Assembly: GCA_963978095.1 (NCBI GenBank)
Contig: CAXBQP010000046.1
Location: 1-25,847 of the forward strand
DNA: 25,847 nt
Reading direction: 5' to 3'
Origin: an uncultured bacterium
GTDB taxonomy: Bacteria > Gemmatimonadota > Gemmatimonadetes > Gemmatimonadales > Gemmatimonadaceae
Below, in pieces: positions 21,779 to 25,847 of this stretch; position 1 is the stretch's first letter, and each line of letters starts with the position of its first letter. The notes beneath the pieces are model-generated. The model was not told where the DNA came from. It made no database searches and saw only the letters and a list, made by a program, of their open reading frames with translations. The position numbers and the translations under genes are program-made.

Positions 21779-22440
21779 ACGCGCTGCTGGATACCATCCA
21801 AGGGTGGCTGGCCACGATTCCGATTCCGGGGCTGTACGTGCTCCTCGGCATCGTGGCTTTCATCGAAGGAATCTTTCCGCCGTTGCCGGCGGATCTGGTG
21901 GTCGCCCTTGGCAGTTTCCTAGCGGCCCGCCGCGGCGCGACTTTGCCGGCCACCGCCGCCTCGATCGTCGTTGGAAGTGTGGCGGGTGCCATGGTCGTGT
22001 ACGGGGTGGCCCGCCGATTCGGCGCCGTGTGGCTCCATGAGCGCCTCAAGAGGGCCGGCGTCGAGAATCTGGAGCAGCGTCTTGAAGTCATGTACTCGAA
22101 GTACGGGCTGACCGCGCTGTTCGTGAGCCGATTCCTCCCGGGGCTCCGGGCGATCACCCCACCAATGGCGGGGGCCACACGGATCCCTCCGATTCGCACG
22201 ACGCTCGTTTTTCTGGCGGCATCGGCGGTGTGGTACGGGGCCATCTCGTGGATCGCGTTCACGGTCGGGGATGATTGGACGCAGATGCAGCGGATGGTCC
22301 GTCGATTTGCCCGTCAGGTCGGAGTGGTGGCCGCCATCGCGGCAGGACTCATCGCGGTGATCGCGATCGTCGTGATCCGCCGACGCGCCGCAGCCAAGGT
22401 CGCCGCCGCACTCGAACGCACCGGCTCCGGAACGGAATGA
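21775..22440 (+). CDS. DedA family membrane protein
   Basis: EGIFPPLPAD and SRFLPGLR DedA motifs; hydrophobic profile. Confidence 0.88.
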   Translation: MNALLDTIQGWLATIPIPGLYVLLGIVAFIEGIFPPLPADLVVALGSFLAARRGATLPATAASIVVGSVAGAMVVYGVARRFGAVWLHERLKRAGVENLEQRLEVMYSKYGLTALFVSRFLPGLRAITPPMAGATRIPPIRTTLVFLAASAVWYGAISWIAFTVGDDWTQMQRMVRRFARQVGVVAAIAAGLIAVIAIVVIRRRAAAKVAAALERTGSGTE

Positions 22441-23348
22441 CGGCGCCGGGCGGGGATGCCAGAGCGTTCCTCGTCGAGCGGTTTCAGGAATATCTCGCTC
22501 TCGAGGACGGTGCATCCGCGCTGACGATCGAGGCGTACGGCCGAGATCTGCAGCAGCTCGTCCGATGGTGTGCCGGCAGGGGGATCACCGATCCGGCGGA
22601 GCTCACCAGCGCCGCGTTGCGCGAGTTCGTGTATGCGCTCAAGGACCTGTCACGATCGCCGGCCACCATCCGGCGGGTCGTGTCGGCCGTGCACACCTGG
22701 TTCGCGTTCCTCCTGGCGGAAGGGGTCGTGCGCGCCGACCCGAGCGAACGCCTCGAAACGCCCAAGCGATGGCGCACGCTGCCCGAGGTTCTCTCCGTCG
22801 ACGAGGTGTCACGCCTCTTGTCGGCAGTCTCCCTCGATGAGCCGATGGTCTTCCGCGACCGGGCGATGCTCGAGCTGGCGTACGGCGCCGGACTTCGGGT
22901 CAGCGAGTGGATCGGCATCGAAGTCAAGGATCTGCTCCTGGAAGACCACGTGATCCGCGTGTTCGGCAAGGGAAGCAAGGAGCGCCTGGTGCCGATCGGC
23001 CGAACCGCGATCGGGGCGGCAGGAATGTACCTGCGCGAACTGCGACCGACGCTGGAGCGGGGAGAGGGGAAGGGGAAACTTTTTCTCACTGCGCGTGGGC
23101 GGCCCCTGTCCCGGATGTATGCGTGGCGGATTCTGCGGAAATATGTCGAGCGGGCCGGCATCGAGAAGCATGTCAGTCCGCACACGCTGCGGCATTCGTT
23201 CGCGACGCACCTGCTGGAGGGCGGCGCCGACCTGCGCGCCGTCCAGGAGATGCTCGGGCACGCCGATATCTCAACCACCCAGATCTATACGCATGTCGAC
23301 CGCGAGTACCTTCGCTCGGTGCACCGGCAGTTCCACCCGCGCGGTTGA
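22437..23348 (+). CDS. xerD: Site-specific tyrosine recombinase XerD
   Basis: TIEAYGRDL, RDRAMLELAYGAGLRVSE, GKGSKERLVP, SPHTLRHSFATHLLEGGADLRAVQEMLGH, TTQIYTHV, FHPR end; ATG 22437 overlaps the dedA stop. Confidence 0.9.
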   Translation: MTAPGGDARAFLVERFQEYLALEDGASALTIEAYGRDLQQLVRWCAGRGITDPAELTSAALREFVYALKDLSRSPATIRRVVSAVHTWFAFLLAEGVVRADPSERLETPKRWRTLPEVLSVDEVSRLLSAVSLDEPMVFRDRAMLELAYGAGLRVSEWIGIEVKDLLLEDHVIRVFGKGSKERLVPIGRTAIGAAGMYLRELRPTLERGEGKGKLFLTARGRPLSRMYAWRILRKYVERAGIEKHVSPHTLRHSFATHLLEGGADLRAVQEMLGHADISTTQIYTHVDREYLRSVHRQFHPRG

Positions 23349-23377
23349 TGCGCGTCCCCGGCATCCACGCGTTCCGC

Positions 23378-23383
23378 TAGATT
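23378..23383 (+). promoter_or_regulatory. Candidate -10 box, leaderless promoter of the pabA/trpG fusion gene
   Basis: GC-TAGATT-CCCCCT-ATG, nearly identical to GC-TATAAT-TCCCCC-ATG before the PMM/PGM gene; no SD. Confidence 0.55.
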
Positions 23384-23389
23384 CCCCCT

Positions 23390-25096
23390 ATGCTGCTTGT
23401 CATCGATAACTACGACTCGTTCACCTACAATCTCGTGCAGTACTTCGGCGAACTGGGTGAGCGTCCGCGCGTTGTGCGCAACGACGAACTGACTGTCGAC
23501 GCCGTCGGCGCCCTGAACCCCGACGCCATCGTGCTGTCGCCCGGCCCCGGCGCCCCGGCGCACGCCGGCATCTGCATCCCGGTCATCCGGCGCTATGGCG
23601 CATCCGTACCGCTGCTTGGCGTCTGTCTGGGCCATCAGGCAATCGGCGAGGCCTACGGCGGAACGGTGATTCGCGCGCCGCGCGGCGTGATGCACGGCAA
23701 GACCAGCCGGATTCGCCACGACGGCACGTCGCTCTTCGCCGGCCTCGAGGATCCCCTCGAGGTCATGCGTTACCACTCGTTGGTCATCGAACACGCCACG
23801 ATCCCGGCGGAACTTCGCGTGACGGCCAAGGCGGTAGACGATCCCACGGAGATCCACGCGGTGCAGCATCGACGTCATCCGGTCTGGGGGGTCCAGTTCC
23901 ATCCCGAGTCTATCTTGACGCAGCAGGGTAAGCAGTTGCTTCAGAACTTCCTCCACCTGGCGCGCGGGGGCGCGGGGCGCGCCGTCCTCGGGACCCTGCT
24001 CGCGGGGTGGGCGATGCTGTCCGCGCTCATCGCGCCGCTTCAGGCACAGGAGGTCTACTCGACCCCAACGCTTGAGGGCCCCCGCGCGACGGCAGCGAGC
24101 GCCTACGTGGTGTCACGCATGTCCGCGGGGTTCGCGGGCGCCATTCTCGTGGCCCACCACGGAAAAGTCGTCTTGCGTGGTGGCTACGGTATGGCCAACC
24201 GCGAGCGCGGGATTCCATGGAGCACCTCGATCGTGGCGCCGCTCGGTTCGGTGACCAAGGTATTCACCGCCGCCGCCGTCGTGGACCTCTGGGACCGCAA
24301 GTTACTGGCACCCTCGGACAAGCTCGGGAAGTTCTTCCCCCGATTCACGACCGCGTCCACGGCAGACCTGACGGTCCAGCAGTTGTTGACGCACACCTCG
24401 GGGTTGGACACGTTCAGCGGCGATGATTTCGAAAAGATCGGCCTGAGCGAGTTCCTGACCCGCACGCTCGGGAGCGCGCCCAAGAGTGCGCCGGGGACGA
24501 TGCGCACGTCGAACATCGGATTCAGCCTGCTCGCGGCCATCGTCGAACGGGTCGGTGGGCTGTCGATGGACAGTTTCCTGCGCCGGCGTCTGTTCAACTT
24601 CGTCGGGATGACGCATACCGGATACAATCTGCCGAACCTCCCGAGCGATTCGATGGCGGTGGGGTACCTGAACGATATCCGTCGCGGCACGTTGATCGAT
24701 TCGCTGGCACCGCTCGGGGCGGATTTCTGGAACTTGTACGGGAACGGCGGCATGCAGGGCTCGGCGGAGGAGCTGTACCTCTGGGTCCGCGCGCTCGCCG
24801 ACGGGAAGGTACTGTCTGCCCAAGGACGCCGAGCCATGTGGGCCCCTCAGGCCCGGCGCCCCGATGGGGCGGAATACGGTTACGGCTGGTCCGTGCGGCG
24901 GGACGCCAAGGGGGAGCTGGAGCAGGTCAGCAACAGCGGTTCGGACGGCGTGTTCCTGGCCAGCCTCAACTATTTCCCGCAAGAGGATCTGTTCGTGTCC
25001 GTCGTCAGCAACGTCGGGGGGCGCGAAAGCATGATCAGCAACACCATTTCGGGGGTGCTCCGGGTGATGCTCGGCGGCGAGTCGCCGACCCCGTAG
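23390..25096 (+). CDS. Fusion: anthranilate/aminodeoxychorismate synthase component II (class I GATase, aa 1-~190) + signal-peptide-like helix + beta-lactamase-family serine hydrolase (aa ~220-568)
   Basis: N-half: IDNYDSFTYNLVQY, LSPGPG, GVCLGHQ, MHGK, MRYHSL, GVQFHPES. C-half: GYGMANRE, SxxK in GSVTK, LLTHTSGL, LLAAIVERVGG, GNGG, YGYGW. One uninterrupted frame. Confidence 0.85.
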   Translation: MLLVIDNYDSFTYNLVQYFGELGERPRVVRNDELTVDAVGALNPDAIVLSPGPGAPAHAGICIPVIRRYGASVPLLGVCLGHQAIGEAYGGTVIRAPRGVMHGKTSRIRHDGTSLFAGLEDPLEVMRYHSLVIEHATIPAELRVTAKAVDDPTEIHAVQHRRHPVWGVQFHPESILTQQGKQLLQNFLHLARGGAGRAVLGTLLAGWAMLSALIAPLQAQEVYSTPTLEGPRATAASAYVVSRMSAGFAGAILVAHHGKVVLRGGYGMANRERGIPWSTSIVAPLGSVTKVFTAAAVVDLWDRKLLAPSDKLGKFFPRFTTASTADLTVQQLLTHTSGLDTFSGDDFEKIGLSEFLTRTLGSAPKSAPGTMRTSNIGFSLLAAIVERVGGLSMDSFLRRRLFNFVGMTHTGYNLPNLPSDSMAVGYLNDIRRGTLIDSLAPLGADFWNLYGNGGMQGSAEELYLWVRALADGKVLSAQGRRAMWAPQARRPDGAEYGYGWSVRRDAKGELEQVSNSGSDGVFLASLNYFPQEDLFVSVVSNVGGRESMISNTISGVLRVMLGGESPTP

Positions 25097-25196
25097 GCGT
25101 CAGCCTTAGAACCGACCGCCACGTCACCTAAACCACGCCGGATCAAGACCTTCCGCCTCGTGATCGGCCGCGGGAGGCCGTAGTTCGGTCCGCGCT

Positions 25197-25225
25197 TTGC
25201 GCTCGCGAGGTCCGAGGCCTATATT
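25197..25225 (+). promoter_or_regulatory. sigma70-type promoter upstream of kdsB
   Basis: TTGCGC (25197-25202), 17 nt, TATATT (25220-25225). Confidence 0.65.
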
Positions 25226-25232
25226 CCGTGGC

Positions 25233-25277
25233 GTGGATTTTGCGTATGCGCCCCCGATGCCAGCGGTGCTTTTGTGA
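25233..25277 (+). other. Candidate 14-aa leaderless uORF (MDFAYAPPMPAVLL)
   Basis: GTG 7 nt after the -10 box; TGA 25275-25277 overlaps the kdsB GTG (GTGA); kdsB lacks an SD. Confidence 0.4.
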
Positions 25278-25847
25278 GCGCCTTGGTCGTCATCCCCGCT
25301 CGTCTCGGGGCCACGCGGCTCCCCCGTAAACCGCTGCGACTCCTCGGTGGTCAGCCGATCATCGTGCGTGTGTGGGAACGGGTGCGTGCCATGCCCCTCG
25401 ATGCCAGGATCGTGATTGCCACCGATGCCGAAGAGGTGGCATTGGCCTGTCAGGCCGTCGGCGCCGAGGTCGTGCTGACGCGATCGGACCACCCCTCTGG
25501 TACTGACCGGGTCGCGGAAGTCGCCGCGAGGCCCGAATTCGGCGGGTTTGAGGTCATCGTGAATGTCCAGGGGGACGAGCCCTACATCAACAGTGATGCG
25601 GTGCTTGGGGCGGCCGCCCTCGTCCGCAGCGGACGGTTCCCGCTCGGTACGGCAGCCTCGCACGCGCCGACCGGGATTCTCACGAATCCGGATGTCGTGA
25701 AGGTCGTGACGTCGTCCGAAGGGCGCGCGCTGTATTTCAGTCGTGCCCCGATTCCATTCCTGCGGGATCAGGCCGATCGGGCGCTCCAGGACGCGATCCT
25801 CAAGCAGCACATCGGGGTATATGCGTACACCCCGGCGGCACTGCAGC
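25274..25847 (+). CDS. kdsB: 3-deoxy-manno-octulosonate cytidylyltransferase (CMP-Kdo synthetase), 5' part, runs off window
   Basis: Hand translation from GTG 25274: MSALVVIPARLGATRLPRKPL...IATD...HPSGTDRVAE...IVNVQGDEP...NPDVVKVV...ALYFSRAPIP...HIGVYAY. Not in the ORF track because it has no stop in the window. Confidence 0.95.
   Translation, partial: MSALVVIPARLGATRLPRKPLRLLGGQPIIVRVWERVRAMPLDARIVIATDAEEVALACQAVGAEVVLTRSDHPSGTDRVAEVAARPEFGGFEVIVNVQGDEPYINSDAVLGAAALVRSGRFPLGTAASHAPTGILTNPDVVKVVTSSEGRALYFSRAPIPFLRDQADRALQDAILKQHIGVYAYTPAALQ

What the first reader, a model, noticed from the sequence alone, without database searches (positions are those of the whole stretch)
23390..25096. PabA/TrpG glutamine amidotransferase fused through an internal signal peptide to a beta-lactamase-fold hydrolase
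Seen: a complete class I GATase with intact Cys-His-Glu triad ends at its usual LLQNFL (about aa 190), but the frame continues ARGGAGR-AVLGTLLAGWAMLSALIAP-LQA|QE (basic, hydrophobic, SPase I-like site after A219, base 24046) and then about 350 aa of serine hydrolase. Neither shifted frame has a stop within 30 codons of the junction, so a single indel error in the G run does not restore a normal pabA end. An in-frame TTG at 23936 with AGGG upstream could start a stand-alone 37-aa signal peptide. Known: PabA/TrpG is cytoplasmic and its usual fusions are to PabB, TrpE or TrpD; beta-lactamase-family hydrolases are often exported. I do not know this combination. Inference: a membrane-spanning protein with cytoplasmic GATase and periplasmic hydrolase, a polyprotein split by signal peptidase leaving a membrane-tethered GATase, or a recent strain-specific fusion.
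Basis: partly seen in the sequence, partly recalled or inferred. Interest (0 to 1): 0.72.

Follow-up and report, generated by a model that had tools for sequence, protein, structure and literature searches.

The report
Tryptophan enzyme fused to exported hydrolase
In one freshwater bacterial species, the gene for a cytoplasmic tryptophan-pathway enzyme runs in one reading frame into a formerly separate gene for a likely exported hydrolase and keeps that gene's predicted export signal mid-protein, so one gene would likely supply proteins to both sides of the membrane; similar joins at this gene were found in two other lineages.

Summary
Real fusion, not an assembly error. The 568-aa frame is bridged without indels by contigs from three studies. 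Ten distinct 568-aa variants exist. The N-terminal half is the only TrpG-type amidotransferase found in this genome. The linker is the passenger's own signal peptide, minus its Met and basic start. A close relative has trpG, a dipeptidase and the hydrolase as three genes, so a deletion likely made the fusion; 0 of 54 relative loci are fused. New here: two further Gemmatimonadota-type TrpG fusions carry different exported passengers behind internal signals, one lipoprotein-type. Their unfused relatives have overlapping stop/start codons. Best reading: a two-in-one precursor, likely cut by signal peptidase I (inferred, untested). The hydrolase lacks the usual catalytic Tyr and is not a class C beta-lactamase. 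The scan has noted this general design on other DNA, so the principle is not new; the visible, repeated origin at one gene is.

The parts
23378..23383 (+). TAGATT, a -10-like hexamer 6 nt before the ATG (predicted leaderless transcript)
   Evidence: TAnnnT lies 4-9 nt before the trpG start in 23 of 51 scored loci (this one included) versus 0.75% of random genome positions
23390..23962 (+). TrpG-type class I glutamine amidotransferase (aa 1-191), triad C79 (23624), H171 (23900), E173 (23906)
   Evidence: Pfam PF00117; TIGR00566 227.8 bits versus cut-off 121; motif positions
23936..23938 (+). In-frame TTG (L183): possible but unsupported internal start
   Evidence: Also TTG in 6 and ATG in 8 of 54 unfused relatives; anti-SD duplex -3.9 kcal/mol, matched or beaten by 22% of internal NTG codons
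23963..23980 (+). Junction RGGAGR: the old trpG tail, now standing in for the passenger's n-region
   Evidence: G020 trpG ends LARRRAAVGV* with similar DNA; the exact breakpoint is inferred
23981..24046 (+). Retained h- and c-regions of the hydrolase's signal peptide, AVLGTLLAGWAMLSALIAPLQA, with predicted SPase I cut after A219
   Evidence: Aligns to the N-terminal signal of stand-alone ortholog P0003 (25 of 40 identical over signal plus mature start); hydrophobicity maximum
24047..25096 (+). Serine hydrolase of the beta-lactamase/DD-peptidase fold (aa 220-568): S287-x-x-K290 intact, Y-S-N replaced by T373-S-N, H replaced by N515
   Evidence: PF00144; model pLDDT 96.4; Foldseek top hits R61 DD-peptidase and 2qmi, then AmpC; motif columns
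22437..23348 (+). Upstream xerD-like tyrosine recombinase (usual upstream neighbour, not part of the fusion)
   Evidence: Pfam; synteny
25274..25847 (+). Downstream kdsB-like cytidylyltransferase (cut by the window end)
   Evidence: PF02348; synteny

Best explanation
The gene joins a TrpG-type glutamine amidotransferase in frame to a beta-lactamase-fold hydrolase through that hydrolase's own retained signal peptide, likely after a deletion removed the gene between them, and the product is predicted to be threaded through the Sec channel and cut by signal peptidase I after A219 into a cytoplasm-facing TrpG and a periplasmic hydrolase. Shown: the open frame, the homology of the linker to the ortholog's signal peptide, the three-gene state in a close relative, and 10 variants all full length. 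Inferred steps: (1) an in-frame deletion removed the trpG stop, the M19 dipeptidase gene and the hydrolase's Met and n-region; (2) a probably leaderless mRNA gives one 568-aa chain; (3) TrpG folds first, and the internal h-region acts as a signal anchor with TrpG inside and the hydrolase outside; (4) SPase I cuts LQA|QE; (5) TrpG stays tethered by the 28-residue stub, or is freed by RseP, and supplies ammonia to TrpE. The two halves most likely have unrelated jobs. The fusion replaces the stop/start coupling that relatives use to translate the gene after trpG.
For: Open frame bridged in 3 studies; 10 variants of 568 aa. G020 has trpG (88%), dipeptidase, hydrolase (78%, own signal) and kdsB in that order; G000's best dipeptidase match is 27.5%, on another contig. 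The linker aligns with P0003's signal peptide including A-P-L-x-A|Q-E-V-Y. The only linker variants, S211F and I214V, keep it hydrophobic. Listed contig variants in the hydrolase are 9 synonymous to 2 non-synonymous; dN/dS against G020 is 0.155/1.21 (hydrolase) and 0.088/0.95 (GATase). This is the only TrpG-like gene found, with one TrpE-like and one TrpD-like gene elsewhere. Two SPase I genes and RseP are present. Parallel cases: P0009/P0010 (NFLKLAG-VFALSFTLG|C plus beta-propeller; passengers 79% identical to each other) and P0014 sit at separate places in the TrpG tree among unfused relatives. Precedent: SPase I cuts RsiP and RsiV after a transmembrane segment that follows a cytoplasmic part (PMC8844934, passages); SecA targets RodZ by an internal segment (PMC5674894, abstract).
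Against: No protein, RNA or localisation data; the one RNA run covers only 25023-25110. No SignalP-type predictor was available. The retained cut site may be inherited without being used, because the fusion is young. The n-region has only two Arg (R192, R197). dN/dS against G020 includes time before the fusion. The within-species counts are small (19 variants taken from cut tables), and the GATase itself shows 4 synonymous to 4 non-synonymous. The hydrolase lacks the Tyr kept in 58 of 62 homologues, so its activity is uncertain. The DNA of P0009, P0010 and P0014 was not seen, and P0014 is a single sequence. G022 and G026, which group with this TrpG, have neither downstream gene, so the order of losses is not fixed.
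Confidence: 0.55

Rival explanations
1. The chain is inserted the same way but not cut, giving a permanent single-pass protein with TrpG inside and the hydrolase outside.
For: The 19-residue segment 199-217 (mean hydropathy 1.88) is long enough to span a membrane. Uncleaved signals act as anchors (PMC9360617, passages).
Against: The c-region P-L-Q-A|Q-E matches the stand-alone ortholog and is unchanged in all 10 variants. In P0009/P0010 the Cys after a short h-region is kept while its neighbours differ, which suits processing.
Confidence: 0.17
2. Ribosomes also start inside trpG (TTG 23936 or 23915) and make an ordinary pre-hydrolase. The full-length chain serves only as TrpG carrying a tolerated tail.
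For: A start at L183 gives a normal-looking 37-aa signal peptide. TTG is used for 10% of Leu codons in window genes, yet occurs at both sites. Real starts in this window often have weak Shine-Dalgarno matches too.
Against: TTG occurs at each site in 6 of 54 unfused relatives. The SD match is unremarkable. There is no upstream stop codon to couple a restart, whereas relatives use overlapping stop/start codons.
Confidence: 0.14
3. A tolerated accident: the buried signal is not used, the passenger stays cytoplasmic or is degraded, and it is on its way to loss.
For: The fusion is young and confined to one cluster. Close relatives G022 and G026 do without the hydrolase. TrpG tolerates C-terminal fusions (many TrpG-TrpD hits). 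The catalytic Tyr is absent.
Against: No stop or frameshift in any of 10 variants; 9 synonymous to 2 non-synonymous variants in the passenger. The Tyr loss is shared with unfused orthologs P0003-P0005, so it predates the fusion. The P0009/P0010 fusion persisted through 21% passenger divergence.
Confidence: 0.12
4. Assembly or sequencing error at the junction.
For: Metagenome-derived genome; 4 of 7 runs list no bridging contig.
Against: Three studies bridge the junction without gaps; 10 distinct full-length variants; no single indel restores a normal end.
Confidence: 0.02

Closest known systems
Bradyrhizobium japonicum FbcH cytochrome b/c1 precursor (recalled from memory; paper not held)
   Same: One gene, two proteins, separated at an internal signal-peptidase-like site.
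   Different: There both products are subunits of one membrane complex. Here a soluble cytoplasmic enzyme precedes the signal, the two halves appear unrelated, and the unfused ancestor state is visible.
Anti-sigma factors RsiP and RsiV (PMC8844934, passages read)
   Same: Cytoplasmic part, one transmembrane segment and an outside part; type I signal peptidase cuts first, then RasP/RseP.
   Different: Their cleavage is regulated and destroys the protein as a signal. Here constitutive maturation of two enzymes is proposed, and nothing points to signalling.
TrpG fusions such as TrpG-TrpD (PRK14607, PRK09522) and fusions to chorismate-binding or DAHP-synthase domains
   Same: N-terminal TrpG with a C-terminal passenger.
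   Different: Those partners are cytoplasmic pathway enzymes with no signal peptide. Of the 120 listed hits in each, only this cluster combines PF00117 with PF00144.
R61 DD-peptidase / AmpC / AmpH-like serine hydrolases (MEROPS S12-type, label recalled; PDB 1ikg, 2qmi)
   Same: Fold (TM about 0.77-0.81), S-x-x-K motif, exported form in orthologs.
   Different: About 20-24% identity; Y-x-N is T-S-N; far below the class C and AmpH cut-offs.
Internal-signal fusions noted earlier by this scan (Maf-M48, TatD-barrel, EpmB-lipoprotein, NodB-LolA, GMC-sulfatase, unchecked AI notes)
   Same: Cytoplasmic enzyme, then a retained signal peptide, then an exported protein.
   Different: Most are described as conserved across a clade. 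This one is young, its origin can be read from neighbours, and the same gene fused three times to different passengers.

Membership tests
TrpG/PabA class I glutamine amidotransferase (TIGR00566) | Profile score above the curated cut-off | tested here: met
   227.8 bits versus 121.05
TrpG/PabA class I glutamine amidotransferase (TIGR00566) | Cys-His-Glu triad | tested here: met
   C79, H171, E173
TrpG (anthranilate synthase component II) rather than PabA | Partner synthase in the genome is TrpE | tested here: inconclusive
   One PF00425 gene scores best on TrpE models but just under cut-off (495 versus 518); TrpD present; no dihydropteroate synthase above cut-off; genome 91% complete
Class C beta-lactamase (AmpC) | Profile score above cut-off | tested here: not met
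   NF033085 52.5 bits versus 415
Class C beta-lactamase (AmpC) | Y-x-N motif tyrosine | tested here: not met
   T373-S-N; Tyr in 58 of 62 homologues
PF00144 serine hydrolases (beta-lactamase/DD-peptidase fold) | Fold and S-x-x-K nucleophile motif | tested here: met
   178 bits versus 27; S287 and K290 invariant in 62 of 62 homologues; model and Foldseek
PF00144 serine hydrolases (beta-lactamase/DD-peptidase fold) | Catalytic activity and substrate | not testable with these tools
   Needs an assay
Signal-peptidase-split bacterial precursor (FbcH-like) | One uninterrupted frame for both proteins | tested here: met
Signal-peptidase-split bacterial precursor (FbcH-like) | Internal segment with basic, hydrophobic and small-x-small parts | tested here: met
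   RGGAGR / aa 198-216 / LQA|Q; homologous to the ortholog's N-terminal signal. Position -3 is Leu as in P0003; judged by eye, no predictor run
Signal-peptidase-split bacterial precursor (FbcH-like) | Cleavage shown in vivo | not testable with these tools
   No proteomics available
Signal-peptidase-split bacterial precursor (FbcH-like) | No separate start codon for the second protein | tested here: inconclusive
   TTG 23936 is not special but cannot be excluded

The most novel reading that the evidence does not exclude
The end of trpG in Gemmatimonadota is a recurrent birthplace of signal-peptidase-processed polyproteins. The gene is often followed, stop overlapping start, by an exported-protein gene. 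At least three times a small or large deletion has spliced TrpG's basic C-terminal helix directly onto the neighbour's hydrophobic signal core. This yields precursors for both SPase I (P0001, P0014) and SPase II (P0009/P0010) that work at once and persist. Internal cleavable signals behind a folded enzyme would then be an easy and general route to gene fusion in bacteria.
Probability: 0.4. Interest if true: 0.7.

Novelty: new variant of a known kind. Interest (0 to 1): 0.5.

Why it matters
Signal-peptide predictors and annotation assume the signal sits at the N-terminus, so such precursors are labelled simply as anthranilate synthase component II (as P0010 and P0014 are). Three natural before-and-after pairs at one gene offer a direct test of whether Sec with SPase I or SPase II handles a signal placed behind a 190-residue folded enzyme. 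TrpG gives a simple growth read-out. The biology of this single fusion is probably modest, because the halves look unrelated, and the hydrolase is not a recognisable resistance gene.

Tried and rejected
Single-sequence AlphaFold of the full protein failed (pLDDT 33) and was not used. The 50%-representative search listed 150 hits, none with a best stretch spanning both halves. All 20 listed phylum matches with open frames of 342 aa or more ended within 222 aa; 328 further matches were not listed, and several long-frame matches were not fetched. P0008 (ArsA fragment plus this hydrolase from the junction on, 1,466-nt contig, one sequence) looks like a chimeric contig and was set aside. Genome searches with P0010 (401 genomes) and P0014 (251 genomes) found no match covering both halves. 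No Rfam match in the window; no terminator-like site in 23200-25400. Literature searches (listings only, except the four papers opened) showed no TrpG/signal-peptide fusion; subscription journals are mostly absent from that library. No complex prediction was run, since binding between the halves is not claimed. The tree is the quick version, without test_one_clade.

Full report
Observation. The frame 23390-25096 is open for 568 codons. It holds a Pfam GATase domain (aa 3-189) and a Beta-lactamase domain (aa 250-545). Between them lies the most hydrophobic stretch of the protein (aa 199-217), ending in LQA|QE at base 24046. Shifted frames from the G run stop only after 32-35 or 92-95 codons, so no single indel restores a normal end.

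It is real. Eleven public runs hold part of the stretch; seven were laid. Contigs of X1, X5 and X6, from three studies, bridge the junction without gaps. X4, X7, X8 and X11 list no bridging contig, and none lists an indel there. The protein collection has ten distinct sequences in this cluster, all 568 aa. They differ from the window by 1-8 residues, and the only linker changes are S211F and I214V in one variant. A search of 120-384-aa proteins listed no stand-alone TrpG closer than 89% (120 listed), so no unfused form of this species was found. Close homologues in that list are labelled Gemmatimonadaceae or Gemmatimonas, which places the organism by inference.

How it arose. In the 61-genome search the amidotransferase's closest matches are 87-88% identical. 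In 54 relative loci the frame ends 20-55 residues after the HPES motif, and none is fused. G020 shows the unfused state: trpG (ending LARRRAAVGV*), an M19 dipeptidase with its own signal, the hydrolase (78% identical, own signal peptide), then kdsB. The dipeptidase also follows trpG in seven other fetched genomes, while G000's best match to it is 27.5% on another contig. The window's linker from A198 aligns with the N-terminal signal of the stand-alone ortholog P0003. RGGAGR resembles G020's trpG tail at DNA level. The simplest account (inferred) is an in-frame deletion from the trpG tail into the hydrolase's n-region. G022 and G026 group with this TrpG but have neither gene between trpG and kdsB, so the order of losses is uncertain.

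The halves. The N-terminal half passes TIGR00566 with an intact triad. The genome (91% complete) has one chorismate-binding enzyme, scoring best as TrpE though just under cut-off, a TrpD on contig C34, and no dihydropteroate synthase above cut-off. Of six PF00117 matches, only this one is TrpG-like; the next best is 35% identical. The fusion is therefore probably the cell's only TrpG. The C-terminal half models confidently (pLDDT 96.4) on the R61 DD-peptidase/AmpC fold. S287 and K290 are invariant in 62 of 62 homologues, but the Tyr kept in 58 of 62 is T373, and the His kept in 55 of 62 is N515. Both changes are shared with unfused orthologs P0003-P0005. It is not a class C beta-lactamase (52.5 versus 415 bits), and its substrate is unknown. 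dN/dS against G020 is about 0.09 (GATase) and 0.13 (hydrolase). Among 19 variants taken from the listed contig tables, the hydrolase has 9 synonymous and 2 non-synonymous changes and the GATase 4 and 4; the tables were cut, and position 23431 was left out as coming from other organisms.

It has happened more than once. In the search for long TrpG forms, the four best hits are this cluster, P0009, P0010 and P0014; the other listed hits are mostly TrpG-TrpD and similar cytoplasmic fusions. All four have a hydrophobic segment right after the TrpG C-terminal helix. P0009/P0010 read NFLKLAG-VFALSFTLG|C (AFAFAFTLG|C in P0010) before a beta-propeller, a lipoprotein-type signal judged by eye. They are 93% identical in TrpG and 79% in the passenger, so that fusion has lasted. 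In four genomes of a related genus the same propeller is a separate gene whose start overlaps the trpG stop; in two more it lies further off. P0014 reads NFLRLA-VSGLAIAIAALTAVPVNG|Q; in 6 of 6 loci checked its passenger's relatives start at an ATGA overlap with trpG. In each fusion the passenger's Met and basic start are missing, which a one-base error would not produce. The TrpG halves fall in three separate places among unfused relatives (quick tree). The DNA of these three proteins was not seen, and P0014 is one sequence. The setting explains the recurrence: in 15 of 49 loci chosen by TrpG similarity alone, the next gene starts within -8 to +10 nt of the trpG stop, and 14 of these 15 begin with a basic-then-hydrophobic segment by a crude test (26 and 25 of 62 with the loci fetched through P0010 and P0014). 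One row in these counts and in the tree (L023) comes from the unpublished genome G036; no conclusion depends on it.

Translation. TAGATT lies 6 nt before the ATG. A TAnnnT hexamer lies 4-9 nt before the start in 23 of 51 loci versus 0.75% of random positions, which suggests a leaderless mRNA. The internal TTG at 23936 is shared with unfused relatives, and its Shine-Dalgarno match is ordinary. An internal start is neither supported nor excluded.

Mechanism. Whatever else happens, TrpG is made only as part of the 568-aa chain, barring a frameshift. I judge it most likely (0.55) that the internal segment targets the chain with TrpG inside and that SPase I releases the hydrolase. The genome has two SPase I genes and RseP. 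Precedents: RsiP and RsiV are cut by type I signal peptidases next to a transmembrane segment, then by RasP (PMC8844934, passages). RodZ is targeted by an internal segment through SecA (PMC5674894, abstract; PMC9360617, passages). The FbcH precursor is recalled, not read. PMC10783764 (passages) gave only background on leaderless mRNA. Rivals: uncut anchor 0.17, internal restart 0.14, tolerated dead passenger 0.12, artefact 0.02. No supplementary files were read; none is known to bear on these claims.

Novelty. The searches (listings) showed no TrpG fused through a signal peptide. The general design has precedents, and this scan has noted it in at least 9 other genomes (unchecked notes); it had no note on look-alike DNA of this locus. 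I class this as a new variant of a known kind. Its value lies in the visible origin and the repeated use of one gene. Interest 0.5.

Noticed in passing
window 25220-25275 (before kdsB); L001-L026: A strongly conserved DNA motif, TAT(A/C)TT-(C/G)C-GTGGCGTGGATTTTGC, lies about 50 nt before the kdsB start in 18 of 30 loci. It could be a -10 box with a leaderless upstream frame (V/M-A-W-I-L...) overlapping kdsB, or a regulatory element of the kdsB-pyrG operon. No Rfam match.
   Followed up: partly
window 24506-24514 and 24932; P0003-P0006: A small clade of PF00144 hydrolases has T-S-N or S-S-N where the family has Y-S-N (4 of 62 homologues plus this one). This resembles the S-x-N motif of penicillin-binding proteins (recalled). 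Activity unknown.
   Followed up: partly
window 23378-23392 and relatives' trpG starts: Predicted leaderless trpG transcripts in 23 of 51 loci. Several window genes lack a Shine-Dalgarno match.
   Followed up: partly
L053-L056, L004, L007, L178, L203 (slot between trpG and kdsB): This slot is a variable cargo site: an M19 dipeptidase, a peroxiredoxin-like gene (by eye), the hydrolase, a propeller lipoprotein, or nothing.
   Followed up: partly
G004:C73:11101-11666: trpG appears in two overlapping pieces in different frames: a frameshift or an assembly error.
   Followed up: no
L052 (G018:C25:9000-20000): A cluster of several PF00144-like hydrolase genes, including the next-closest homologue (41%) of the passenger.
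   Followed up: no
P0169, P0191, P0256, P0065, P0090: Other TrpG fusions outside this group: chorismate lyase, chorismate mutase, EPSP synthase, a tRNA-synthetase domain (PF00579) and a GNAT domain.
   Followed up: no
G000 genome: No dihydropteroate synthase above cut-off and only one chorismate-binding enzyme: possible folate auxotrophy, or the missing 9% of the genome.
   Followed up: no
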